Assembly: GCA_964016885.1 (NCBI GenBank)
Contig: OZ024746.1
Location: forward strand, 6,572,001 to 6,636,000
Reading direction: 5' to 3'
Length of the DNA stretch: 64,000 nt
Origin: Eledone cirrhosa
Lineage: Eukaryota
The notes below the pieces were generated by a model, which was not told where the DNA came from, did not search any database, and worked only from the letters and a program-made list of their open reading frames with translations. The position numbers were made by a program, and so were the translations under genes. Every line of letters begins with the position of its first letter. Within the stretch, counting starts at the first letter, position 1. This document shows, piece by piece, positions 6,368-63,456 of the stretch.

Positions 6368-6482
6368 TAGGAAAAAGAAGTTGGAAATGCAATTGTAGTC
6401 TTTAAGAAAGATTATTTACAATAATTTATTGTAAATAAACCTTCTTGAAGACTACAATTGCATTACCAACTTCTTTTTGCTA
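6368..6482. repeat. About 115-bp imperfect palindrome (fold-back element)
   Basis: aaaaagaagttggaaatgcaattgtagtc... is mirrored by ...gactacaattgcattaccaacttcttttt. Confidence 0.85.
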
Positions 6483-6491
6483 CATTTTTAC

Positions 6492-6681
6492 GAACAAGTA
6501 AGACCCCGACGGCTGAGCTCAAGCCGTTTCGACGGCTAATTCTGAGTACAGAATTAGCCGTCGAAACGGCTTGAGCTCAGCCGTCGGGGTCTTACTTGTT
6601 CCTATTACCCACTCTACTACCCTAAGTATTGAGTACTTTGGTGCGTTATGGTCCACCTGGTTCCTTACCATATTTCCTTCG

Positions 6682-6683
<2 letters not shown>
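6492..6683 (+). mobile_element. About 190-bp palindromic half-hammerhead micro-element, copy 1
   Basis: Perfect 53-bp arms (6492-6544 and 6549-6601) plus a unique tail ending ccttcgtt(AT)n. Other copies at 31857, 40567 and 49252. Confidence 0.85.
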
Positions 6684-6732
<49 letters not shown>

Positions 6733-6746
6733 TTTTAATATAGATG

Positions 6747-6797
6747 AGATTCTACAGGACTAGAACTGTTTCATTCTTTAGAAATCATCAGGAATCT
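6747..6797 (-). ncRNA. Type I hammerhead ribozyme motif with intact core
   Basis: Minus strand reads AGAUUC-CUGAUGA-UUUCUAAAGAAU-GAA-ACAG-uucuaguc-CUGU-A-GAAUCU. Stem I is 6 bp, stem III is 4 bp, stem II is short, and the cleavage triplet is GUA. Confidence 0.8.
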
Positions 6798-7110
6798 GGG
6801 TATCAAATAATAAATAAAAAAAATAAATAAATAAATAAATAAATATATATATATATATATTTGAAAAAAAACGGAAAAGAATGACTTCACTTGTAGTTCT
6901 AAACAATTTGATTTAGTTTTAGAATATTATAATATTATGAGTTGTTAGATCTAGTAAGTTCTTTGTTAACTTCGGTGGGAAGAATTTTAAAGATTCCTGG
7001 TTAACTTTCCTGGAGAACTTTCTCGCATTCGTCGGTGGCGATTGTCACTCAGTTTAACAATCGCCACCGACGAATACGAGAAAATTCTGTACCAAGAATC
7101 TCACACATTT

Positions 7111-7228: not shown

Positions 7229-7408
7229 ATGGCTTCTACAGAACTGTTTCATTCGCGAGAAATCATCAGAAAATCAGGGCTTTCCCGATGGTTTCTCCCG
7301 AAGGAAACAGTTCTAGTCCTGTAGGAGCCATTTCTATATTAAATATTTATACTCTGCTATGTATTGAGTACCTTACTTACTGTGTTTACCCCCGATTGAA
7401 CCCGGGAT

Positions 7409-7410
<2 letters not shown>
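7229..7410. mobile_element. PLE pseudo-LTR-like fragment with two hammerhead motifs in opposite orientations
   Basis: Minus about 7231-7275: CUGAUGA-UUUC-ucgc-GAAU-GAAACAGuuCUGUA. Plus about 7279-7330: degenerate CCGAUGG...GAAACAGuucuagucCUGUA-GGAGCC. Same family as 6747-6797. Confidence 0.65.
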
Positions 7411-7493
<83 letters not shown>

Positions 7494-15305: not shown

Positions 15306-15392
15306 AAAAGTAAATAACAACAAGAAGGAGTACAGTTACGAAAGGTGTTAGACCTTTCGTAACTGTACTCCTTCTTGTTGTTATTTACTTTT
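15306..15392. repeat. Perfect palindrome with 41-bp arms and a 5-nt loop
   Basis: aaaagtaaataacaacaagaaggagtacagttacgaaaggt-gttag-acctttcgtaactgtactccttcttgttgttatttactttt, lying between TA/TG microsatellites. Confidence 0.92.
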
Positions 15393-15645: not shown

Positions 15646-16116
15646 TTATGTATGTATGTATGTATGTATGTATGTATGTATGTATATATCTGTATATGTA
15701 TTTATGTATATCATCGATTAGTCAATAAAAACTGCGAAGAGCATCACAAGATGTCAGAAACAGAAGTAATAAAAGTGAATTTGTGTAAACATTCCATCTT
15801 TTCTATATAAACTCATAAAATTCTTTCTTATTAGATATCGTTTAAACACATATTAAACAACATTAACACAATAGCCGTGCAGAAATATTTAGTTCAGTAT
15901 TTGTAAATGTATTTTTTCTGAATGTTGAGGAAATGGTTTTTTTTAATATAAATCCATTAAATGTAGTATGATAAAGGTATTCCTGTATATTCCAACACTA
16001 TGGAACTTCTAGAATTAAGTGTTATTAAATATTTTATTCTATTTAAGAGTTTTACAAACGTGTTATTTTCCTATGTTTCTATTCAAATGTCTACGTAAAT
16101 AAATATTTGAACTTAC

Positions 16117-23307: not shown

Positions 23308-24489
23308 ATTGTTATATTTGGGGAGGGTCATATTTGCGTAATATTGCCAGAATTAATAACAGAACACACTCACTGTTTGGTTGGTTTTCGCTTCTCGCTG
23401 TCTTTTATATCTGCGATCTAACTGACTAGGTCCTCAATGTTGCCATTGACTGACCGGCGGTCAAAAATAATACAGATACAATATAGACACAAACACATAT
23501 ATATAGTTTACATAATTTACATAAATCTTTCGTTGCACATCTGCAACATCGTCAGTGGTGTTATATTCATTGTTCCTCCTGTTGTGTTGTATGTCTACGC
23601 CATTTTTTATTCAGTCTGTCTATATATTTATTTATTTATTTATTTGCTTGTTTGTTTATCTTATTTTATTTTGTCTTCTTTGCGCATGCGTTTGCGTGTG
23701 TGTATAGTGTTATGTGTGATGTGTGACTAGTGTGTATAGTGTTGTGTCTGCTGGGTGACTAGTGTGTGTTTATGTGCTTGTTGTTATTGTGCTTGTGTAT
23801 GTATTTATTTATCTTATTTTATTTTATTTTATTTACTTATTTATACTTCTCTTAGGTCAGTGTTGTTTGTTTGGGTGTTGTTGTTGTTCCACTCATTCTT
23901 TCTGTTTAGCTTTGGTCTTCTAATTTGTATTTCGCTGGCCTCTCTGATTAGCCTATCTGCTGGGTCATTCCTATGTTTAGATATTATTCTAATTTCTATG
24001 TTGTCTATGTTACCGTCATGTTGTTGTCTAGCATGTTCGTATAGTACTGACCCGTTTTTTCGTCCTTTTAGTTCCCCCCAGTGTTGGTCTATCCTTTCAC
24101 CTATGCTACGAGCTGTCTCACCTATGTATGTTGTTGTCATGTTTCTGCAAGTACCCTCTGTACATCTTATGCTATAGACTACGTTTCTAGTTTATCCGGG
24201 GGTTCACCTTACATATGATACATTTCCTATTGGTACAGTGGGTTTTCTTAAAAGGGTAGGTTTTGCTGATCAGGGATTTTATGGTGGTTCCTGGCTTTTC
24301 TACCACCTTTATTTTTAAGTGGGTCTTTCTCAGGGCCTTTCTACACTGGTTAGCTAATTTCCCTCCAGGGGTGGCGTCCACAAACATGACACTCTGATAT
24401 CTCTGGTTGTCGTACCATGATGTGGCCTTCCCTATCTTATGTCTAGCCCTATCTAAGCTATTCCATCTATCTAAACTAATTCATCGCCG

Positions 24490-24583: not shown

Positions 24584-24907
<324 letters not shown>

Positions 24908-25670: not shown

Positions 25671-25944
25671 AGGATGTAGCTGTAGCTGCGATGTCAGTAG
25701 GATGTAGCTGTCAGAATATATTATTGACTGTATCCCATTGGGGAGGAGGAGGACTTACCTAATCCTGGTACTTCATTTTATCGACCCCGTAAAGATGAAA
25801 GGCAATTAAATCTAACAAGATAATTGTTTCTACTTTTGGCACAAGACCAGCAATTACCCAGTACTTTATTTTATCGACCCCGTAAGGATGAAAGGCAAAG
25901 ATAATAAAAACACAATATGTATATGATAGAAACCACACAATTAC

Positions 25945-26241
25945 CTGTAACTTTGAGTTCTATTGACAACACTGCTTCTCCTTTTGTGTTAGTCGCCTTG
26001 CACGTGTATTTTCCTGCATCATTCATATTTATAAAGTTGAAGAAAAGATTTCCATTAGCAAGCAATCGCAAATGACCGTTATCGTTATTATTAACAACAA
26101 GATTGAGGTCTGCACCGTCTTTTAACCACGTAATTTCAGCTGTAGGTGCACTCTCGGGGTCACATATAATCGAAAGATTTCCATTAACTGCTCCAGAGAC
26201 TATCTTGGATTGGCGAGATCTTACAAAAGTTGGTTTGAACT
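25945..26241 (-). CDS. cntn: Contactin-like exon 5: complete Ig5
   Basis: ttttcag|AG...G|gtaatt, phase 1/1. Reads (E)FKPTF...IICDPESAPTAEITWLKDG...NGNLFF...DAGKYTCKATNTKGEA...LKVT. Confidence 0.95.
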
Positions 26242-26287
26242 CTGAAAACACACAGAAATTTAAATTTAACTACAAGCCACACACACA

Positions 26288-26606: not shown

Positions 26607-26658
<52 letters not shown>

Positions 26659-26665
<7 letters not shown>

Positions 26666-26887
26666 ATACTTGGGGAGGGTCATATTGTTGTAATAATATT
26701 GCCAGAATTAATAACAGAACACACTCACTGTTTCGTTGGTTTTTGCTTCTGTGTCTTTTATATCGGTTAATTTAATTTAAGATATAAAAGACACAGAAGC
26801 GAAAACCAACGAAACAGTGAGTGAGTTCTGTTATTAATTCTGGCAATATTATTACACAAATATGAGCCTCCCCAAGGATAACAATAT
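26659..26887. repeat. Fold-back palindrome made of two inverted copies of the P3 PLE terminus
   Basis: Arms of about 105 bp. The left arm matches 23308-23412 and 47150-47260. Confidence 0.9.
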
Positions 26888-28199: not shown

Positions 28200-31100
28200 A
28201 GGTTCAATGAATAAATCAAAGTATGGTTTTCCAGAGTTATTAATATTAATTCCAGAGTTATTAATATTGATTCAAAGATGATAAGAAAAGATGATAAAAA
28301 AACACAAAATTATCCAAATGGACATAACAAGCTATTACTCTTCCATTATGCCTAACCTACTTAAAAAGGATCTATCCTACGCTTACAAACATACAGATCT
28401 AACTACGGATGAAATCGATATCATATTAACTGCTAGAAGAACTCTAATTAATTTCAACAATGAGTATTGGACCCGCTCAGATAGAAATAGAAACTTTGAC
28501 ATTACCATGGGATCATCGGACTCAGCGCAAGTCACGGATCTTCTGGGGATTTCCATCTTAAATATGGTAAATAGAAACCTGCCAGAGATTACCGGTGGTT
28601 TATATAGGGACGATATTTTATTTATGGTTGTCAAACACAGCAATACAGAACTAAATAGGGTTAAGAAAAATATAATTGAATTCTTTAAAAATTACGACCT
28701 TAAATTAGAGGTTGAAAGTGGTACCAAAATAGTTAATTTCCTTGATGTTACCCTTAACTTAAACTCTGGTTTTTATTACCCTTTCCATAAGCCCAATGAA
28801 AACTTAAATTACGTTAGTTATTACTCTAATCACCCTAAATCTGTGAAAAATGCTATTGTCAATAGTGTACAGAAACGCATAACTACAATATCTGCGAATA
28901 AATCAATATTTGATGAAAAAGCAGGATATTACAATGATGCGCTAAGAAAGGCAGTTTATAAAAATAATATAGAATATATAGACAATAATAATTCGAATCT
29001 TAATCCTGATAAAAATAATGTGACTGGCATGTATAAACGAAATTCTAAAAATTATAATTCAAACACCTGTACTGTCAATACATCGGGGAAAAAAAACAGA
29101 ACTAAATCAGTTATATGGTCCCCCCCCCCCTGCTTCTGTAGCAGTAAAAACACCACTAGCTAATCTATTCTTTAAGGCTTTAGATAATTCCTTCCCTAGT
29201 CAACATAAATACCGTTCCATATTTAATAGACACACAATTATGCTTTCTTATTCTACAACTATGAATATGGCCCAAAACATCGCTAAACTAAATAGTAGAA
29301 TTCTAAACCAAAATCAGCATAATAGTGTTAATAATAGTGCTAATATAAATAATAATAAATCGAAATGTAATTGTAGAAATAAACCAGATTACCCTCTGCA
29401 AAATAATTGTCTGGATAGAAATTTAGTGTATAAATGTGCCGTAAAAGCAAATAACATCACATACAACTACATAGGGTCAACTTCTTCGACATTTAAATCG
29501 AGATTTGCGAATCACAAGTGCTCGTTTTCGAATCCTAATAGGAAGTCTTCGACTTCTTTATCACAACTTATATGGTCATTAAAAGACAAAAATTCAAAAT
29601 ACTCTATTTTTGGGACGAAGCTTTGTAATAGTAGAATCTATCAAATTCGTCTATATCAACTAACTGCAACCTCTGTACTAAGGAGACCCTATTAATAATT
29701 ACTAATTATGAAAACTTAATTAACAAAAAAAGTGAATTATTCTCAAACTGCCTTCATAAGTCTTTGTCTACATTCCAAGCCTCGCAAAAGGTCAGGAAAA
29801 AACACTAAATAAACAGGTTTTAATTTTTGACGTCTCTTATCAACTGTTGTACCTAAAACGTTATAATAGCTTATAAAACTTTAATAATACTTTATTTTCT
29901 AATCATTTATGATAGAATTAATGTTAGAATGAAGGATCCTATTTAGTTATATAAACATATTATTTGTTAACTTGTTCTCTTGATGAATATGCACACCTTT
30001 GAATTATTTTAGATATTTATAATTTAGATTCGGATTCTTATAAATATTTGTCTTTGTTTTAAATATATAATTTGGATATATAACTTGTAAGATTACCGGT
30101 TATAATTGAACCGTAAATCATTCATGCATTTATATATTTTACTCCTTTTGGGTATGTTTTGGGACTCAGAAAGTTAGATTTGCACATATATATGTTTTAT
30201 ATTTAGGTATAAATATCACAAACCATACTAGTCGACAAATATTGGTCTACCTTTCCACTGAACTGGAGGTAAAACTACAATTATAACTTTACTAATAATT
30301 ATTGTAATTATTTATTTATTATATGTATATCGTTTCATTAATATCTATAATACTCTTTCTATATATTTGAACAAATATGTTTATCTAGTATAATAACATG
30401 CTCGTAGTTACATTTATAAGTAATTTAGATACTCAAATGACTCTCTATTATAAGTGTTACATATTTCCTTAATATTCGAAATTATATAATGATTATTACT
30501 TAATTTAATTTAATTTATTTTATTTTAATTAAATTTAGATTACCTCCGGGTCATTCAAATCCTTAGCTCCACTTTCTATCACCTTCGTTGGACATTTTAG
30601 AAGTATCTTTTGTCTACTATATTATAAAACCATCTTGCATTTTAAACTATATTTTTTTTATATTGGGCATTTTTATGTTTCGCAAACAATTCATTATTTT
30701 TTCACTTTTTTTCACTTTTTATTTTTTCACTTTTTATGTTGTATCTAGTCCTTATCCTTAGGACTCATGAAGTTTTGACTTATATATTTATAGTATATAT
30801 CTATTAAATGATCCTTTTACAATAATTGATCTAAAATATTAATTTTTAACAATAATTTCAGTAACTTATTTACTATATTGTATTATATTATGTATATTTG
30901 AAAGGTATCATCTTAAGTCTTTAGACAATATAATCTTTGTGTATTTTTTTTTATAAACACATATATGTAACTTAAAATTCAGACCTTTTTAAGTTTAATT
31001 ATAAGGCCTGTTGATCCTTTAGGCACTCAAATTGTTAATCATAAATTCTTTAAAAATTATAACGGTAATTATTTCTAAATTATATTATATAAACTGTTGT

Positions 31101-31830
31101 CAATATTATATGATAAATTTGGTAAAGTTTACCTTCGTGAGGTTGTAAAAACATTGTTTTCTTTCTCGTGTTTGTAAATCCTTTAAATTTGATTTCATAA
31201 AATTTGATTTTAGAAATTAAATTTGATAGTATACTTTAATATTAATACAGATACCTATTAACTTTTAAAACCTAAAATATTATTCATTACTCTGAACTAA
31301 CTTAAATTAAATATTTTGAATATTAACGGTCAACCAGATATGTTTAGATATATATTGTATATATGGATAATTGTCTAAAGACTTGAACATAAGTTTATTC
31401 CTCTTTATCTCTCTCTCTGTAATCAACTCTCTTTTGCTTTTCTAGGCCCCTACTAACTATATTATCCCCTCATCTGTCTCTTCCTCTATGCTTTTCTTTT
31501 CTTTCCTCTTTCTTCAGTAATTTAAATTATTTAACAGTTATATTGATGCCAAGTATTTTTTAAGCTGTCTCACACGCATCCTCTCTATTGTATGTATTAT
31601 ATATTTTTCTCATGTTTCTCAATATTAAGGTATATAAATATTGAGTTTTGTCATATATTACACACTACCATGACTGAATCTTAACCATCTACTATGTCAG
31701 GGTATGTCATGCATCATCTTATTTTATCTGATGAGGACGTACTGTTGAAGTTAACTCAGTGCCTCTGAAATATGTATAATAAAATATACTTGATCACAAG
31801 AATATCTATTTTGTTAATATTTTGAATTAA
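28200..31830 (+). mobile_element. Penelope-like element, family P1: 5'-truncated, frameshifted RT and GIY-YIG, about 2-kb 3' region ending in a hammerhead
   Basis: ORF 28291-29163 reads MDITSYYSSI, TMGSSDSAQVTDL, GLYRDD, NFLDVTL, SNHP. A frameshift lies at the poly-C near 29119-29130. ORF 29240-29695 reads CNCR...LVYKC...YIGST...KSRF.NH. Both ends sit in (TA)n. Confidence 0.88.
31720..31786 (+). ncRNA. Type I hammerhead ribozyme motif at the 3' end of PLE P1
   Basis: UAUUUUAU-CUGAUGA-GGACGUACUG-loop-CAGUGCCUCU-GAA-AUAUGUAU-A-AUAAAAUA. Stem I is 8 bp, stem II has 9 of 10 pairs, and stem III is short and quasi-palindromic. Confidence 0.78.
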
Positions 31831-31856
31831 TATATATATATATATATATATATATA

Positions 31857-32112
<256 letters not shown>

Positions 32113-34962: not shown

Positions 34963-35995
34963 CTATTAAGTGATCTATAACATACTTGACCTCCTTTTCA
35001 ACACAAGAGACATATAAAAACATATGCACATATTGATCCACAGTGGGATGACATCCATCAAAATGATATAGCATGGCAATTTACATATAAAGGTTAAAGG
35101 ATAAAAATAAAAATAAAAATAAAAATAAAAATGAAGCATTGGCAGTTTATGAAGATAAAGCAAGAGGAAAGTTTAGAGTAGTCAGTGTATGAAACAATCT
35201 CACGTGTAGCATGCACGCGTGTCTTATTTATACAGGATTAGAGTGCGTCAGATTGTTACTTGCAGGGTCAGGCAGTTGAAGCAGGCAATCGATATTATTA
35301 TGTGGGCTGAATTATTAAATCATTTTTTCGCATACACCTGTATGATATACAGTCCCGAATGTAGAGAAACACCAAAATATCAAAAATATCAAACATATTA
35401 TAAAACAAATTATATCGTAGGCAAAACAGTACCACTGTCTTCGCGCACACCACCACTCACATAATCCATGAGACGCAATATATAGACCACGGGTCTATCG
35501 TATAATCCACGATGGTTCAGCATATAACCAAGTCATAAACCGTATCTTGTCGATTCTTAATTAATAGATCATGTTGTTTAGTTTTGTGTGATGATATTAT
35601 ATTCCGGAAGTGTGTGTATGACCAAGGGGAATTAATGCGTAAGGGGAGGTAACTAGCTGGTTTTCTTAGTTAAATTTATTATCCTAAATTACATTAATAT
35701 ATATATATATATTACAAATATTTGTGAATCTATGAATGTATGTGTCTTTGTATGGATCTCTAGAATATCAGAGTTGATGCCGTTAATCTTCACAACTTTT
35801 ACTGATATGTAACGAAATGTGTGAGAGAGAGAGAATGTGTGTGAAAGATAGAGAGAGAGAGTGTGTGTGAGTGAGTGAGAGAGATGGGAGGGAGTAAGAA
35901 TGTATATAAAAATGAAATATAATATTAAGCTAGTCACAAATGTAAGTATAATTCAAAATATATATTGTAAACAAATGAATGAAGTATATTCTTAC

Positions 35996-36268
35996 CTAGA
36001 ACCCTCAGTTGAGCTCCGCTTAAGGTGATACCAAAGGAATTTGAGGCACCACATTGATACATTCCACTATGGAGAGCTATGTCGGCAGATTTAATAATCA
36101 ACTTGTTTCCTACCACTTCAAGATTGTCTCGTTTTGGGTCTATTAGAAAACCATTTTTGTACCAAGTATATGTAACCTCTGGGCGCCCACGAGCATCACA
36201 ACGCCAAGTAAGATGAGAACCAACGTCGATATGTTGTGATTTTAATGGTAACACAAAATATGGCTTTG
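35996..36268 (-). CDS. cntn: Contactin-like exon 4: complete Ig4
   Basis: tttccag|CA...G|gtaaga, phase 1/1. Reads (A)KPYFVLPLKSQHIDVGSHLTWRCDARGRPEVTYTWYKNG...HSGMYQCGASNSFG...AQLRVL. Confidence 0.95.
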
Positions 36269-36405
36269 CTGGAAAACACAACATATATAAAACATACATT
36301 TCTAATTTAATATTAAAACGAAAATTTAACATTTACATATTGCCTTTTTGTTATTAAAAATATATTTACTAAATTCATATTTCTCTCTCTCTCTCCATAT
36401 ATATA

Positions 36406-36744: not shown

Positions 36745-37705
36745 AATCTTAATTATAAAAAACAGACACAAATATTGAAACTGATATACACTCATACAAC
36801 CAACAGATTCCAAACAATACCTGCTATTCACCTCTAACCATCCAAAGCACACTAAGACTAACATCCCTTTTAACCTAGCAAGAAGAATTTGCACAGTTGT
36901 CTCCAATTATGAAACGCGAAATAAAAAACTTCAAGAATTAAAGGAAATTCTGCTCGAAAGACAGTACCCACCATTACTAATAAATAATGGAATAGAAAGG
37001 ACTAAAGCAATAGGCATTGATGAATTACGAAAACAGAAACAAATTCAAGGTACGCCCAATATTCTATCATATATCTCAACACACAACCCAAGAAGTGCGG
37101 AAGCTTACAACATTATTCATTATTCACTATTGAAACAAGACAGAAGAATTAAAAAAGTCCTTGAAACACTCAAAATAATCAAAAGCAAAAGACAACCGAA
37201 ATCATTAAAAACATTACTCACAAATCCCAAATTACCTACCACAAACCCACAACCAACTGTCAAAATATGTGGCCGCTCTAATTGTGGAACCTGCACTCAC
37301 CTCATTGAAAGCAACATGTATACATTTCAATCAGGACAAAATTTTGTTGTAAAAAATCACTTCACTTGCTCATCAAAAAATTTAGCTTACGACATTAAAT
37401 GTAAAGGATGCAATGAAGATTATACAGGACAAACTAAACTCACACTCAGAAACAGAATGACAGTTCATCGCCAACAATTACGAGATCCAACCACGAGACA
37501 GATACCACTCAGTGCACATCTAGACATATGCGCAAGTGATAAGACACCCAAATTCAAAGTCTTCCCACTTTATCTTTGCGCCGACAATACAACAGAACAA
37601 ATACGAATAAATAAGGAAAATATGTTTATTCAAAACTATAGACCAGCATTAAATATAGTTTAATATACATTATGTTAACACCATAACATGCTAACCATCC
37701 AAACA

Positions 37706-40566: not shown

Positions 40567-40738
40567 ACGAAGGAAGTGTGGTAAGGAACCAGGTGGACCA
40601 GAGTACTCGATACTTTGGGTAATAGGAAAATAGTCAGAACCCCGACGGCAGAGCTCAAGCCGTTTCAACAGCTATTTCAGTCCAGAAATAGCTGTCGAAA
40701 CGGCTTGATCTCTGCCGTCGGGGTTCTGACTCTTTTCC

Positions 40739-42525: not shown

Positions 42526-42646
42526 ATATTTATTAAAATAACAGATTAAAGTCTAAGCAAAGAATCGCTGCTTTCACAGAAGATCCCGTTAAGGGTGAAA
42601 GCACCGATTATTTGCTTAAACTTTTATCTGTTATTTTAATAAATAT
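42526..42646. repeat. Fold-back palindrome of a short element also seen as single arms at about 24925-24988 and 34000-34060
   Basis: ttaaaataacagattaaag..taagcaaagaatcgctgctttcac...gtgaaagcaccgattatttgcttaaacttttatctgttattttaa. Confidence 0.8.
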
Positions 42647-47046: not shown

Positions 47047-49251
<2,205 letters not shown>

Positions 49252-49254
<3 letters not shown>

Positions 49255-49445
49255 GGAACAAGTAAGACCCCGACGGCTGAGCTCAAGCCGTTTCGACGGC
49301 TAATTCTGTCCAGAATTAGCCGTCGAAACGGCTTGAGCTCAGCCGTCGGGGTCTTACTTGTTCCTATTACCCACTCTACTACCCTAAGTATTGAGTACTT
49401 TGGTGCGTTATGGCCCACCTGGTTCCTTACCACATTTCCTTCGTT
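49252..49445 (+). mobile_element. Half-hammerhead palindromic micro-element, complete copy within (TA)n
   Basis: Perfect 57-bp arms (49252-49308 and 49311-49367), 2-nt spacer, and a unique tail. Confidence 0.88.
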
Positions 49446-57860: not shown

Positions 57861-60800
57861 CTACAGGATGGTATACAGAGAAGGCCCATTTACACGAGCC
57901 ATTCTCGCCACTATCACCCACCTTTCATAAAACTGCCTGTGGCCAAGCACCTCTCTCTCCATTCTTATCCTTCTTCCGAAGTGATATCGGAAGAAGTAGA
58001 CCAGACTATGGCCAGAGAGGAAGTTGCCTGACCTCAGACCTTTCAATCGTGTCCACCAAACAACCTCTTTCAACATGGCTATTACGCACAGAAAAACCGC
58101 CTTTGCTTCCTTTGCGAAGAGGGGAGGCGGTTTGATTGTCATCACGGACTCGGCGGTCAATTTAATCGGCGCCACCCGCGACAGCAGTTGTTCGGCGTAG
58201 CCCCACAGATCAGCCACGCCCGGACATTGCACCAATGCGTGCGCTACGGTTTCTTCGTGACGCACGCATCTAGGGCAAATCTTTTTTGAGGGATCCCTGC
58301 CCGGGCGCCTGTGTCTGTAGAGCCTCTCTCGAACGGGTAGAGCCCCTCGGTAGCACTGCCAGGCCAGTGACTTCTGGAAGTTGTCCATTGGTCCTGGGCC
58401 GAAAGTCCTACCGAACAGGCTGGCCAGTTCGTCTTCTTCCATGTCCAGCGACTCTCCAAGGGTGTCATCGCCCCTGCTAGCCACCAGCCCTCTATAGAAT
58501 GATGAGGTGGATTCTCCACCGATGGCCCGGCCCGCTTGCCAGAGAGCCCTGAGCGCCTGAGCACACTCAGTGTGCCAGTCTCCCAGTTTTCCGGATCTTT
58601 GCTTGACCCAGGACTGCAGCTCGGTGAGTGAGACGAGTCTCGGAAAGGCTCGTTTCACGAACGGAGCCCACACCGGTTGACCAGTGAGGAATACCTGTAG
58701 GTGCCGTAGCCTTAATGCGTGCCTACGCATCATCAACCACGGCATCCCCAGCCCTCCTTTCGAAGGTTGTTGGCAGCAGATGGATCTTCTCACCATAGGA
58801 GGACGCTTCTTCCAAAGAAATTGGAAGAGCATGCGTTCCATGGTGGCGAGTGTTTCCTTAGGGCAAGGCACGACAGTCAGGCGGTAGTAAGTGACGGACG
58901 CTATGTAAATGTTCTCCACCTCCGCCCGGCCTTTTAGGGACAGCTTACACTTGGCCCATTTCTGGGTTAGTGCAAACACCTTGTTCGTAACCTCGTTCCA
59001 GTTCTTTTCCACCTGGAGGTCCGGTCCAAACCAGACCCCAAGCAACTTTACCGGGCCCTCCGTCCAGTGTCCGACGACACCGTCAGGAGGCATCGGTTTG
59101 CCTCTCCACGTTCCGAGTTGCAGCCCGATGGATTTTTCCCGGTTCAGTTTCGCTCCTGACAACCTTTCGTACTCCTCCAGTAAGGTACCGATCGCCTCGA
59201 TCTCCGAGTCGGTTGATACCATTACTGTTACGTCATCGGCGTAGGCCGACACCGCTTTGCTCAATCCTGGTTCCAGGGGGATACCCTGCAACAACTCCAA
59301 CTTCCTCAGTAAAGGCTCGAGAGTCAATACGTACAGAAGGGAGGAGAGAGGGCACCCCTGTCGAATGGATCGTGTGATTTCGAACGGCTTCGAAAGGTAG
59401 CCGTTCACCTTGATCCTAGAACAGATGTGGTTGCTATGTAGGGCAGTGATCCAGCCTCTGAAAACAGGACCGAACCCAGCCGCCGCTAGCACCGCATCCA
59501 GGTAACCATGGTCGACCCTATCGAAGGCCTTAGACTGATCCAAGTTGATCAGGGCCCCACCGAAGCCGGGTTTGTTGCCAACCCTCTCTATGATGTATCG
59601 CATGAGGTGGAGGTTATCGTGAATGGACCTGGATGGGATAGCACATGTCTGCGCATCTCCCACCAGGCCACCCACGACAAGCGCCAACCTCTTTGCTAAC
59701 ACCTTGTCCAAAATCTTTAACTCTGTGTTTAGCAGGGTTATGGGCCGAAAATTATTTATACTATCCCCCTTGTTCTCGTCCTTCCTCACCAGCGTGACTA
59801 CGCCCTTGGCTACAGAACAAGGAATTCTCCCGTTCTGCTGCCAATTGCAGTAGACCGCTTCGAGGAGTTCGGAGAAGAAGACCGGCATTGCTAAATAAAG
59901 TTCGTAAGGTATACCATCGAGACCTGGAGATTTGCGTCTGCTGCATTGGCTCAGCGCATCTCCGATCTCATCAGCCGAGATTGGTCCCTCGCAGGACTCT
60001 GCCTCTTTGTTCGAGAGACGCGGCAGGCCGTCGAGGTATGGACCGAAATCCACGCCCCGGCCCGGACCCTCGCCTCCCCCGAACAATCGGGCAAAGTGCT
60101 TTTGAAAGGCCTCGCACATCTGCTTAGGCTCCCGGATCACTCGTCCATCTTCGTCTTGCAACGACCGGATGGTGGATCGATTTCCACTTTTAGCTTCTGT
60201 CACGCGGGCCCATCCAACGGCTTTGGCCCCCTCATTACCTAGAGCACGTATTTTACTTCGAATGACGCAGCCTTCATGCTTTGCATCGAAAAACTGGTTC
60301 AAGGCCGTCCTCGATGCCAGCACTCTGGCCACATCTTCGCTCTTGATTGCCTCTTCTAATTTACCTGTTAATTCTTTCTCGTTTCTATTCCTATTGGCAG
60401 CTAACATCTTGCTATAACTTATTGATTCTGTTCTAATCTCTCTTTTGAGAGATGCCCACCATCGGTTGTTGACGATTGCACCCGTCAACCTCTCCTTAAC
60501 TAATCTGCTAATCCGGTTTCTGTAAGTCTCTTTTGCCGGTAAAGACAAATTAAGTTTCCAGTAACCGGGACCCTGTCTATGTGTTTTCTCGAGATTGACC
60601 ACGCAGGTCACTAATTTGTGATCCGTGTAGCCAACCGTGCGCATTTCTGGACAGCTTAATATGTCCCTATCCTTACTTCTAACTAAGAATCTATCTAAGT
60701 ACGATCTAGATTGACCACTGTGGTTTCTCCAAGTCCAGGTAGGCACAGTTGGAAAATCTAGTCGATATCTATCGACCAAGTTAAAACGGTCGAGTAACCC

Positions 60801-61298
60801 CTTGAGGCTGTTACACCCCCCTCTATTAGGACATGCTCCTGCATAGTCCCAACGTGCATCCAGGATGTCATTCCAATCCCCCGCTAGAAGCAGGGAACGC
60901 GACGTTCCCAGAAAAGTCTCCAAACGCTGGAAGAAGTCGGGCCGTTCAGCTCCGAAAGGGGAGTAGACGGCGACCAGTCTCAAGGCCGCACTTTCACTAC
61001 TGCCAACGTCTAGCACCAACAAACGACCCTCCGGGTCCGAGTGCACAACCTGTACGGCAAGACCCAGGTGTTTTTGCAGCAGCACGACAACCCCACCCCC
61101 ACCTCCAGGTTGACAGAGAGATGCATGCACCTCAAAGTCATCGAAGGTGGGGGCCAGCTGCCGCATGACGCTGATTCGAGTCTCACAGATAACCATTACA
61201 TTTATACTACATGACCTGAGGTCATTTAGAAGCTTTGCTTGCTTCCAAGTTGAGCCCAGGCCACGTGCATTCAAACATCCTACTCTTAACACATCCAT
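57861..61298 (-). CDS. LINE ORF2: APE endonuclease, reverse transcriptase and CCHC domain (1145 aa, uninterrupted)
   Basis: APE motifs CLNARGL, ICET, GDWN, SYLDRFLV, TDH. RT motifs KSPGLDG, FRPITLLN, DQSKAFDRVDH, RQGCPLS, AYADD. C-terminal CPRC....ETVAHALVQC. Confidence 0.95.
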   Translation of the reverse strand: MDVLRVGCLNARGLGSTWKQAKLLNDLRSCSINVMVICETRISVMRQLAPTFDDFEVHASLCQPGGGGGVVVLLQKHLGLAVQVVHSDPEGRLLVLDVGSSESAALRLVAVYSPFGAERPDFFQRLETFLGTSRSLLLAGDWNDILDARWDYAGACPNRGGCNSLKGLLDRFNLVDRYRLDFPTVPTWTWRNHSGQSRSYLDRFLVRSKDRDILSCPEMRTVGYTDHKLVTCVVNLEKTHRQGPGYWKLNLSLPAKETYRNRISRLVKERLTGAIVNNRWWASLKREIRTESISYSKMLAANRNRNEKELTGKLEEAIKSEDVARVLASRTALNQFFDAKHEGCVIRSKIRALGNEGAKAVGWARVTEAKSGNRSTIRSLQDEDGRVIREPKQMCEAFQKHFARLFGGGEGPGRGVDFGPYLDGLPRLSNKEAESCEGPISADEIGDALSQCSRRKSPGLDGIPYELYLAMPVFFSELLEAVYCNWQQNGRIPCSVAKGVVTLVRKDENKGDSINNFRPITLLNTELKILDKVLAKRLALVVGGLVGDAQTCAIPSRSIHDNLHLMRYIIERVGNKPGFGGALINLDQSKAFDRVDHGYLDAVLAAAGFGPVFRGWITALHSNHICSRIKVNGYLSKPFEITRSIRQGCPLSSLLYVLTLEPLLRKLELLQGIPLEPGLSKAVSAYADDVTVMVSTDSEIEAIGTLLEEYERLSGAKLNREKSIGLQLGTWRGKPMPPDGVVGHWTEGPVKLLGVWFGPDLQVEKNWNEVTNKVFALTQKWAKCKLSLKGRAEVENIYIASVTYYRLTVVPCPKETLATMERMLFQFLWKKRPPMVRRSICCQQPSKGGLGMPWLMMRRHALRLRHLQVFLTGQPVWAPFVKRAFPRLVSLTELQSWVKQRSGKLGDWHTECAQALRALWQAGRAIGGESTSSFYRGLVASRGDDTLGESLDMEEDELASLFGRTFGPGPMDNFQKSLAWQCYRGALPVRERLYRHRRPGRDPSKKICPRCVRHEETVAHALVQCPGVADLWGYAEQLLSRVAPIKLTAESVMTIKPPPLFAKEAKAVFLCVIAMLKEVVWWTRLKGLRSGNFLSGHSLVYFFRYHFGRRIRMEREVLGHRQFYERWVIVARMARVNGPSLYTIL

Positions 61299-61331
61299 GT
61301 GGGCGGCAGAGCCAAAGGAGAGTGTAGAGAC

Positions 61332-63209
61332 CTACCTTTCCGCTTCCCGGGGTTCGGGTTGCACGACTTCCATGGGGTCGGGGGTGTTGGGTGAAGGGGT
61401 GTCTTGTGGTGGTGTGGGGTCGTCGGTGTGTGGTGGGGTTGGGGTGTTTGGAGTTGTGTTGGGGAGGGGAAGGGGAGGGGGAAAGCTTTTTAGTAGGACG
61501 CGGTTTATGGGTTTGACAGAGGGTGGTCCTACGTCCTCCTTAAAATCCTTTTTTAGTTTTTGGTAGAGGTTCATTGGGATTTTTATTAGTTTTAAATGTG
61601 GGTGGTTTTCTGATGAAACAAAGTTTACACCTTCGGTTTGTACCGAAGGATTATTGTATATGAGTTCATTTAATTTATTATTGTTTCTGTTGATGTAAGT
61701 ATAGTGTAATGTCTTTTTTTCCGATGGTGTGAGTGTTTCGAAGAGGGGAGGGGCAGGTTTGGTTTTGTTTGTTGCTGGAGGGGTGTTTTCTGTTTTGTTG
61801 GATTGTGTTGCGATTTGGGTGGGGGTTGTTTGTCCTTGTGTGTTTTGCACATGTTTTCTTTTTTTCCTTTTAATCTGTCTGAAGGACTCCGTTTCTTCCT
61901 CCGAATTCGTTGGGTTATCTTCAGTGTTGGAGGGAAGAGGTATGTTTGCTGGTAATGTTTCCGTGTTGGTTTTCTTTGTGGGGGAGATGGATGTCACTAT
62001 GTTAGACTGTGTTGTGTGTTGTGTCTGCGGTGGTTGTGTTGTTTTATTGAGTGAGAGGTTGGGTGGGCCTGTATTTTGTTTTGGGGTAATGTGTTGTGAC
62101 TGTTTGTGTTGTGGTGGTGTTGTGGTGTTACTGAGGGACGGGTTGGGTGGGACTGAGTTTTGTTGTTTGTTTATCTGTTGTGGTGGTGGTGGTGGAGCTG
62201 GTGTTGGTAGCAGGGTTTTCTTTTTGTTGAGTTGGGGACAAGCGGCCTTCAGGTGCCCTCTGCCTGCACAGATATGGCAGGACGGCCTTCTCCCCTCCAC
62301 GCTAATGTTTATATACCCGTGGTCCTCTAATAGGATTCTGTCGGGTATTTGGGCGATGCGTTCAGGCTTCATTTGTACTACCAGCTCTATACCTGTTCCA
62401 CTGAACGCATTGCCTGTGGTTTTCCCAATGGAAATCACGTTGTCATTCACTGGATCGATGAAGCCAGCTATGAGCCAGCAGTAGTCCACATCTGGCATCA
62501 TTGCATCCAGCCATATGCGTTGAGTTTTTTTTCCCATATAAGATGGATAAAAGGTGAAATTTTTCGAACGAATCGGTGACAAAGCACATTTTTTTGCCGC
62601 CGATTCGTTCTTCATGATAATTGCTAGGCTTCCATACAGTCTGTCTTTTCTTATGAAAGTTGTTTCATTCAGTACTTCTGCGAGTACTGTTTTGATATCT
62701 GCTTGAGAAGGCTGTTCAGGTTTTTTTGTACTGTTGTTGATGGTCCGAAACTTGACCGTTCGGCTTTCAATGTCTTTCGTGAATTCTTGAGGCATTTTTA
62801 CCAATAAAATACCATTCTCACCTTCACTTATGTATTGTTTTGCGTCCGTGATCCTTCGTACCACATCTGAAATGTTTTCCGCTATATAAGTCAAAGATTT
62901 CTTTGTTTTCTGTGCAAATGAAATCTTGTCGTCTGCTTTGTTTTCTGATATGATGTTATTTTCAACTGTTATTTTTTTGTTTGTTGTGTCTTTGTTTGTG
63001 TTATTAGTATTGTCATGCAATTTTTCAAATTTTTTTTTTTCGTTGTTTTCGTCATTTAATTTTTTCTCCGCAGATTCGTCCGTTTTTATTTTCATTTTTC
63101 CTTCCTTCTCTATGACGTTAGTTGGGAAGGAAGGGAGGACTAAAGCGTGCGAGCTTACAACTCTTACCGCTGTCCCCCCACCACTATTTTCGTTCGCTGC
63201 GTTTAACAT
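61332..63209 (-). CDS. LINE ORF1: nucleic-acid-binding protein (625 aa)
   Basis: Zinc knuckle CHICAGRGHLKAAC preceded by ISVEGRRPS, then a P/Q/T-rich tail with the basic motif KRKKRK. Lies directly upstream of ORF2. Confidence 0.88.
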   Translation of the reverse strand: MLNAANENSGGGTAVRVVSSHALVLPSFPTNVIEKEGKMKIKTDESAEKKLNDENNEKKKFEKLHDNTNNTNKDTTNKKITVENNIISENKADDKISFAQKTKKSLTYIAENISDVVRRITDAKQYISEGENGILLVKMPQEFTKDIESRTVKFRTINNSTKKPEQPSQADIKTVLAEVLNETTFIRKDRLYGSLAIIMKNESAAKKCALSPIRSKNFTFYPSYMGKKTQRIWLDAMMPDVDYCWLIAGFIDPVNDNVISIGKTTGNAFSGTGIELVVQMKPERIAQIPDRILLEDHGYINISVEGRRPSCHICAGRGHLKAACPQLNKKKTLLPTPAPPPPPQQINKQQNSVPPNPSLSNTTTPPQHKQSQHITPKQNTGPPNLSLNKTTQPPQTQHTTQSNIVTSISPTKKTNTETLPANIPLPSNTEDNPTNSEEETESFRQIKRKKRKHVQNTQGQTTPTQIATQSNKTENTPPATNKTKPAPPLFETLTPSEKKTLHYTYINRNNNKLNELIYNNPSVQTEGVNFVSSENHPHLKLIKIPMNLYQKLKKDFKEDVGPPSVKPINRVLLKSFPPPLPLPNTTPNTPTPPHTDDPTPPQDTPSPNTPDPMEVVQPEPREAER

Positions 63210-63456
63210 TTCTGTTAGACGATTGAAATTTTTTACACAAAATTTTTTAAAACAGGTTTTTCACCTCTAGGAGGGGTAAAGATGATCTGACCCACCGCCT
63301 GACAGTTCAGACGGAGGGTCAAGCTACACAATTGTATCAAAATAAAGTTTGAACTCACAAAATTTCCTCAATAAATTTGAACAAAACTTCTGTGCGAAGT
63401 GAATGACATCCACACTGTAGAACAGACGACAGCTAGATTGATATATATATATATAT

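What the first reader, a model, noticed from the sequence alone, without database searches (positions are those of the whole stretch)
6492..6683. Family of mirror half-hammerhead micro-elements (copies at 6492, 31857, 40567, 49252)
Seen: each arm holds GAA-ACGGCU-ugagcuc-AGCCGU-C-GGGGUCUU, which is the GAAA, stem III, GUC site and stem I 3' strand of a hammerhead. The palindrome axis lies exactly where the stem II loop would be (GACGGCUAAUUCUG-loop-CAGAAUUAGCCGUC). The CUGANGA half is absent and replaced by a mirror copy. In the 40567 copy, substitutions appear in both arms (gtcagaacccc/ggggttctgac, ggcagag/ctctgcc, cagctattt/aaatagctg), so the arms are homogenised or regenerated per subfamily. 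Inference: cDNA self-priming on the ribozyme's stem II hairpin creates a symmetric element of about 190 bp. It may spread non-autonomously or present a substrate half for trans-cleavage.
Basis: partly seen in the sequence, partly recalled or inferred. Interest (0 to 1): 0.8.

Follow-up and report, generated by a model that had tools for sequence, protein, structure and literature searches.

The report
Paired run-off scars of Penelope retrotransposons
These 190-base mirror repeats are the shortest insertions of a Penelope-like retrotransposon, present over 15,000 times in this genome, and they likely form when two DNA copies run off the capped start of the element's RNA and are joined head to head, so they would mark where the element is transcribed from: inside its own hammerhead-like ribozyme.

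Summary
The palindromes are real (3 of 4 window copies; 31857 has one ribozyme arm) and occur at 15,671 or more loci. I found the parent: a Hydra-clade Penelope-like element (PLE) whose pLTR folds as a type I hammerhead with the U3-A8 core (UUGANAA), not CUGANGA. The mirrors are not a self-copying family and mostly not fold-back products: 56 junctions in 72 copies, one tail in 117 of 123, either arm can be the longer, some arms come from different subfamilies. Arms stop at a sharp wall (80 of 100 within -7 to +11 of one A) that lies 29-31 bases behind a TATA-like box, matches an initiator, and carries an extra G (12 of 12 unexplained bases; control site 4 of 16). A second family shows the same wall behind a perfect TATA box. 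Best reading: both target strands prime reverse transcription at two internal sites, run off the capped RNA 5' end and are end-joined. The half ribozyme is incidental: this family's promoter sits in loop II. No RNA data; cleavage untested. Two-site priming and inverted insertions are published; the start-site wall and cap signature I did not find in print.

The parts
6492..6544 (-). Tail-less arm of copy 1: parent bases about +5 to +57 (A of AGTAC = +1); outer end has one substitution and abuts another palindrome
   Evidence: L084/L085 are long copies of the same subfamily
6545..6682 (+). Tail-bearing arm of copy 1: starts at +1; GAAAC 6563-6567, GUC 6583-6585, stem I 3' strand from 6586, first priming site after 6602, tail 6603-6682, then (TA)n
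31857..31917 (-). Copy 2: tail-primed arm that stopped after 61 bases; joined through a 4-base overlap (TTAG)
31916..31973 (+). Copy 2: tail-less arm from +1 to the first priming site, then (TA)n
40567..40678 (-). Copy 3: tail-bearing arm starting at +7, other subfamily, two deletions in the tail
40679..40738 (+). Copy 3: tail-less arm starting at +1
49255..49308 (-). Copy 4: tail-less arm starting at +5, after (TA)n
49308..49444 (+). Copy 4: tail-bearing arm starting at +2 (one base shared with the other arm), then (TA)n
6728..6810 (-). Arm of the sister family B with a whole minimal hammerhead core (CUGAUGA at 6791 down); its +1 is 6797
7229..7411 (.). Decayed two-arm, one-tail insertion of family B

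Best explanation
The repeats are the shortest insertions of an autonomous Hydra-clade Penelope-like retrotransposon, each likely made when the element's protein nicks both strands of a (TA)n target, primes reverse transcription at two sites near the 5' end of its RNA, runs off the capped 5' end, and the two short cDNAs are joined head to head. Shown: parentage, (TA)n target, two fixed outer ends about 57 and 138 bases from +1, one tail per insertion, copy-specific junctions, a sharp wall at +1/+2, a TATA-like box 29-31 bases upstream, an extra G before +1, and the same wall in a second family. Inferred: that the wall is a polymerase II start site, that the G is the cap copied as C, that the join is host end-joining, and that the parent ribozyme cuts. 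The 'half hammerhead' arises because this family's promoter lies inside loop II, so the 5' end of the RNA carries only the GAAA/GUC half while the 3' end carries the whole motif.
For: Parent: L104 holds inverted truncated copy + pLTR-ORF-pLTR between (TA)n runs; 786-aa stop-to-stop frame with RWR, DKT, YRDD, CxCx5C, YIG, CxxC/CxH; the tail is the stretch of 5' UTR after the pLTR. Long inverted pairs show the same one-tail anatomy. Wall: of the first 100 arms on contig C1, 80 start between -7 and +11 (mode +2), 1 at about -19, 19 run through the whole ribozyme. Family B (27,663 arm matches): of 52 arms of its main subfamily among the first 86 listed, 30 start at -1 or later, 2 at -2/-6 beside (TA)n, 20 are long, none between -7 and -33; TATAAATA-type box exactly 30 bases before +1 in 19 of 27 long copies; parent ORF 49% identical to the first (L341). 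Family A: box 29-31 bases before +1 in 60 of 60 long copies, YY-AGT at +1 in 56 of 60. Extra G: where the base before +1 is a purine (6,561 places), 27 of the first 30 are G, and 12 G to 0 A when partner arm or microsatellite cannot explain it; 89 G to 11 A in the first 100, counted by eye; family B 8 G, 2 A, 0 T; control site +4 gives 4 G, 6 A, 6 C (Fisher p=0.003 for G against A). Several copies carry the extra G on both arms (listings). Two cDNAs: 117 of 123 mirrors have exactly one tail; tail arm further 26, tail-less further 27, equal 19; 21 microhomology, 26 blunt, 25 inserted joins; L185 and L158 join arms of different haplotypes. Raw reads change strand at -4 to +7 in 11 of the 13 strand-change joints listed. 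In vitro precedent: a Poseidon PLE nicks and extends both strands from two internal sites, the tail lies between them, and cutting the RNA 5' end shortens the product (PMC11167929).
Against: No 5'-end RNA data were examined, so the start site and cap are inferred. In the unselected set the base before +1 was T 11, C 5, G 4, A 2 of 22: templated or partner-derived pyrimidines are commoner than G, so starts may scatter from -4 to +2; the G test excluded those letters by design. An untemplated C added at any RNA end would look like a cap. Family A's TATA-like box is variable (TATTTAAATA in only 24 of 60) and the pattern that found it demanded TA there. The mode is +2, not +1, in both families. 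An AU-rich sub-hairpin in loop II ends near the wall and could stall the enzyme. Most arm pairs match in haplotype, as fold-back also predicts; 4 of the 6 discordant pairs differ by one transition and may be later mutations. Arm samples come from the first 20-80 Mb of one contig and need exact pattern matches. Ribozyme: no Rfam hit, stems 98% paired but without covariation, fold z-scores only -0.4 to -2.1, one of five copies prefers another fold. The parent protein has no Pfam or PDB match of its own; its homologues match GIY-YIG (4 of 43) and RVT_1 (1 of 43) weakly.
Confidence: 0.78

Rival explanations
1. Same parent and two-strand priming, but the wall is a structural stall: the enzyme pauses at the loop II sub-hairpin or a tertiary contact of an RNA that continues upstream.
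For: A hairpin ending near +2 to +4 is predicted in loop II; mode at +2; pyrimidines before +1 in 16 of 22.
Against: Family B's wall lies at the start of stem I, a different structural place, but at the same distance from a TATA box; extra G at +1 and not at +4; short arms have short partners (78 of 81, none long), which fits a property of the template better than independent stalls.
Confidence: 0.1
2. One reading: one cDNA, or an antisense template, folds back and primes the second arm.
For: Arms usually share a haplotype (38 of 44); the wall region is a weak natural quasi-palindrome; 21 of 72 joins have microhomology.
Against: Tail-less arm reaches further in 27 of 72; copies with both arms at +1/+2 and a 0-1-base spacer leave no loop (L135, L206); natural loop II is not kept; L185 differs at three diagnostic bases between arms; a tail-less first strand cannot template a tail.
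Confidence: 0.07
3. A non-autonomous element (retrozyme- or MITE-like) that copies itself as a 190-base unit, perhaps offering a substrate half for trans-cleavage.
For: Fixed outer ends; the 40 best BLAST copies are 97-100% identical, and most of the 30 fetched share one junction.
Against: That set was chosen for likeness; unselected copies show 56 junctions in 72 and the commonest occur in 4-6 haplotypes; arms lack the TATA-like box; no arm pile-up at the cleavage site; no tandem arrays with two whole ribozymes.
Confidence: 0.04

Closest known systems
Hydra-clade EN+ PLEs (Craig et al. 2021, PMC8557442; passages, section 11 and supplement rows read; Hydra-1_Obim is listed there)
   Same: Single ORF with RWK/R, DKT, CxCx5C linker, C-terminal GIY-YIG-like domain, (TA)n target, partial tandem pLTR, inverted 5'-truncated copy, one-sided tail, hammerhead in the pLTR.
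   Different: Tail about 80 bases rather than 30-40; U3-A8 core with a 38-40-nt loop II; about four in five arms are micro-insertions ending at one wall. Whether this family is Hydra-1_Obim itself was not tested.
Poseidon_Ac in vitro mechanism (Frangieh et al. 2024, PMC11167929; parts 1-3 of 4 read, supplements not)
   Same: Both strands nicked and extended, two internal start sites, tail between them, uncleaved RNA used, product length set by the RNA 5' end.
   Different: Other clade; in the parts read, no start site, cap, head-to-head join or genomic class of run-off insertions is described.
Palindromes at inverted PLE junctions in Adineta vaga (PMC3846280, passages) and opposite-strand ribozyme pairs 100-700 bp apart (PMC4209133, passages)
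   Same: Head-to-head pLTR palindromes; putative TATA/Inr in pLTRs; U3-A8 core reported in Schistosoma PLEs.
   Different: Read there as self-priming on an antisense template; here the data favour two sense-templated cDNAs ending at the start site.
Non-LTR retrozymes (bioRxiv 10.64898/2026.07.22.740005, part 1 of 5 read)
   Same: Short pLTR-derived, ribozyme-related repeats of PLE origin.
   Different: Retrozymes are direct tandems with whole ribozymes and self-propagate; these are inverted, half-ribozyme, one-off products.
Minus-strand strong-stop DNA of LTR elements; L1 twin priming (both recalled, no call)
   Same: Run-off to a capped 5' end; two primers on one insertion.
   Different: Primed by target DNA, inserted as such, and both cDNAs cover the same stretch.

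Membership tests
Hydra-clade PLE (parent) | Single ORF, RT core then C-terminal GIY-YIG endonuclease, under about 3 kb | tested here: met
   YRDD and YIG motifs, unit about 3.1 kb; 882 homologues, some with GIY-YIG/RVT_1 hits; no direct Pfam or PDB hit
Hydra-clade PLE (parent) | RWK motif, DKT for DKG, CxCx5C linker, CxxC and CxH, no CCHH | tested here: met
   RWR, DKT, CNCx5C, CNLC, CKH in P0001; RW[KR] 41, DKT 40, CxCx5-6C 42 of 43 aligned
Hydra-clade PLE (parent) | (TA)n target, pLTR, inverted truncated copy, one-sided tail | tested here: met
Hydra-clade PLE (parent) | Placement in an RT tree with named Hydra families | not tested
   no named reference sequences were available to the tools
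Type I hammerhead (parent pLTR) | Conserved core with free N7, G10.1-C11.1, GAAA, NUH, three stems | tested here: met
   positions 4-6, 9, 10.1 invariant in 13 of 13, N7 free, U3/A8 dominant; three-way fold in 3 of 3; U3-A8 is a known natural pair (PMC3088659, PMC4209133)
Type I hammerhead (parent pLTR) | Covarying stems / Rfam match | tested here: not met
   0 of 21 pairs with double changes; no Rfam hammerhead hit
Type I hammerhead (parent pLTR) | Self-cleavage | not testable with these tools
   needs an in vitro assay
Hammerhead (mirror copy itself) | Both core halves | tested here: not met
   5' half absent; folds as one long hairpin
Non-LTR retrozyme | Direct tandem units each with a whole type I ribozyme | tested here: not met
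   inverted, half motif
MITE / non-autonomous element | One inherited internal structure, terminal inverted repeats | tested here: not met
   56 junctions in 72; ends differ by the tail
Polymerase II core promoter | TATA about -30 and initiator at +1 (consensus recalled) | tested here: met
   family B exact, family A TATA-like and variable
Polymerase II core promoter | Capped RNA starts there | tested here: inconclusive
   indirect extra-G signature only

The most novel reading that the evidence does not exclude
PLEs have a strong-stop step: the RNA starts, capped, inside the pLTR; both target strands copy its 5' end first; most events abort and are sealed as mirror scars that map the start site to the base in DNA alone. 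In this family the promoter has moved into loop II of the ribozyme, so the RNA's 5' copy cannot cut itself while the 3' copy can, leaving a 41-base terminal redundancy that would let the enzyme jump and rebuild pLTRs and partial tandems. The scars of many families would be a main source of the near-perfect hairpin RNA behind cephalopod hyper-editing.
Probability: 0.35. Interest if true: 0.82.

Novelty: new variant of a known kind. Interest (0 to 1): 0.64.

Why it matters
How PLEs form pLTRs, tails and inverted copies is still open; the cited papers call for mechanism. Tens of thousands of abortive insertions give a genome-scale record that agrees with the 2024 two-site priming result, argues against the published self-priming reading of junction palindromes, and predicts start sites to the base in two families, so one CAGE data set and one in vitro assay can test it. 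A promoter inside a ribozyme loop would be a simple way to switch off the 5' copy. The scars are perfect hairpins at about 5 per Mb for this family alone; Porath 2017 (PMC5625713, passages) reports unusually abundant near-perfect dsRNA and hyper-editing in octopus without assigning repeats, and this genome looks octopus-like (my inference, not tested).

Tried and rejected
Search for a CUGANGA parent: 28 hits, but on reading they were junction by-products or insertions into other elements; the true core is UUGANAA. Helentron/MITE reading (my first guess): dropped once the PLE parent appeared. Neptune clade: dropped for Hydra on motifs. Rfam: only microRNA-type hairpin matches below gathering score in the window, none for the parent pLTR. 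A first cap-G tally was negative and is reported. One search used a mis-registered structure string; one search replaces it. No RNA holder listed. RAD-seq depth step is not used as a count because reads end at an AATT site inside the arm. A core-burying alternative hairpin in the 5' half was predicted in 3 of 5 copies, near 0.44 in one and absent in one: suggestive only. The structure prediction had not finished; no fold result exists. Earlier-findings look-ups were empty. Literature searches found no paper describing a start-site wall, cap G or run-off mirror class in PLEs; subscription papers and the supplements of PMC11167929, PMC3846280 and PMC4209133 were not seen and may bear on this. 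PMC13000458 (passages) was not useful; PMC7151607 seen as a listing only; PMC2377424 (passages) supports an Inr/DPE promoter in Penelope.

Full report
Observation. Three of the four listed copies are near-perfect palindromes with 53-54-base arms plus an 80-base extension on one side; 31857 has one ribozyme arm joined to 61 bases of that extension. Of the 30 best genomic copies fetched, 29 lie in (TA)n on both sides with fixed ends; L016 has two extensions. The 3.0-Gb genome holds 15,671 mirror-pattern loci and 57,178 arm matches, controls 0. These are lower bounds from exact patterns.

Parent. A CUGANGA search gave 28 hits, mostly junction by-products, but two long arms led upstream. The 5' half of the motif matches 6,728 places. 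L104 is a complete arrangement between (TA)n runs: inverted truncated copy with tail, partial unit, ORF, 3' UTR, pLTR without tail. The protein has the Hydra-clade motifs listed in PMC8557442 section 11; it has no Pfam or PDB hit itself. The extension is the 5' UTR stretch that follows the pLTR, bounded by two TAT sites: the PLE 'tail'. Long inverted pairs also carry one tail, so the mirrors are the short end of one series.

Ribozyme. The parent pLTR reads ACCCC-UUGANAA-G..CGGCUA-loop-UAGCCG-UC-GAAAC-stem III-GUC-GGGGU. N7 is the one freely varying core position and three subfamilies fold as a three-way junction. U3-A8 is a known active pair (PMC3088659) seen in PLEs (PMC4209133). Against: no Rfam hit, no covariation, weak z-scores, and a subfamily with C3-A8. 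Activity is unproven.

The wall. Taking the A of AGT(C/A)C in loop II as +1, 80 of the first 100 arms on C1 start between -7 and +11, 19 run through the ribozyme and 1 stops in between; upstream values are inflated by overlap with the partner arm. Raw reads change strand there too. Short arms have short partners (78 of 81, 3 none seen, 0 long). A TATA-like box starts 29-31 bases upstream, and loop II is about that long. A sister family B, found through other palindromes, has a Hydra-type parent, a whole minimal hammerhead in its arms, and the same wall at CC-AGATT, 30 bases behind TATAAATA (52 of 86 arms belonged to the subfamily scored, the other 34 lacked a reference and were left out). So the wall follows the promoter, not the ribozyme. 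TATA and initiator consensus are recalled.

Extra G. Where the base before +1 cannot be the parent's, it is G far more often than A, also after setting aside bases that partner arm or microsatellite explain (12 to 0; family B 8 G, 2 A, 0 T), whereas a control site at +4 gives 4 G, 6 A, 6 C (30 loci scored by script per search, the 100-row tally by eye). Copying of the cap as C is recalled knowledge. In unselected copies T and C are commoner than G at that place, so this supports run-off at a 5' end more firmly than it proves a cap.

Joining. 117 of 123 mirrors have one tail. In 72 copies not chosen for likeness to the query, either arm may reach further (26, 27, 19 equal), joins are overlapping, blunt or filled (21, 26, 25), arms mostly share a haplotype (38 of 44) but L185 and L158 do not, and junction types recur across subfamilies. 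This fits two cDNAs, usually from one source locus, sealed by end-joining (signature recalled), and not fold-back or inheritance of a unit. Only 1 of 176 partner arms starts at the cleavage site, so the copied RNA was uncut there.

Mechanism and standing. Shown: origin, anatomy, wall, promoter-like spacing, extra G, independent junctions. Inferred: start site, cap, two-strand priming (shown in vitro for another PLE, PMC11167929), host joining. Speculative: 3'-end cleavage, a 41-base redundancy and an enzyme jump; the concordance of long arms could equally mean read-through or circular templates. Inverted PLE insertions, tails, junction palindromes and U3-A8 cores are in print; the start-site wall, cap signature, promoter inside loop II and the scale were not found in searches. 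Verdict: a real, abundant feature; not a new element class; a new and testable variant of a known kind. Interest 0.64.

Noticed in passing
window 6368-6482, 7014-7088, 15306-15392, 24624-24731, 26658-26887, 42526-42646: Six more long non-microsatellite palindromes, several with a one-sided extension ending in (TA)n; likely run-off scars of other families. Dozens more in fetched loci.
   Followed up: partly
G000, family B (L210-L279, L310-L347): Sister family whose predicted RNA begins exactly at stem I of a whole minimal hammerhead, so cleavage would remove the cap; arms nevertheless copy across the site. Its tail shares GTATTGAGTAC with family A, a candidate protein-binding motif.
   Followed up: partly
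window 31728-31770: CUGAUGA...GAAA hammerhead-like motif of a further family; L032 holds a mirror of it.
   Followed up: no
window 28285-29781 (+): Broken Hydra-type PLE ORF, about 41-44% identical to the parent protein; other PLE-like fragments at 23841-24191, 36785-37663, 47625-48994.
   Followed up: partly
window 25871-26269, 35934-36332 (-): Immunoglobulin-domain exons; the copies probably lie in introns of this gene, so they would be transcribed as hairpins.
   Followed up: partly
window 57861-63260 (-): Non-LTR retrotransposon with two long open frames, 642 and 1156 aa.
   Followed up: no
L014, L015, L143, L150: The same G-to-C change in stem III appears in one arm only in four mirrors, never in both: two templates or a mutation hot spot.
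   Followed up: no
L075, L091, L092; L080, L081: Subfamilies with CUGAGAA (3-8 mismatch) or UUGAAGA (wobble) cores still made insertions, hinting that cleavage is dispensable.
   Followed up: no
L058 near 1889, L093 near 583: Chimeric tails between families A and B.
   Followed up: no
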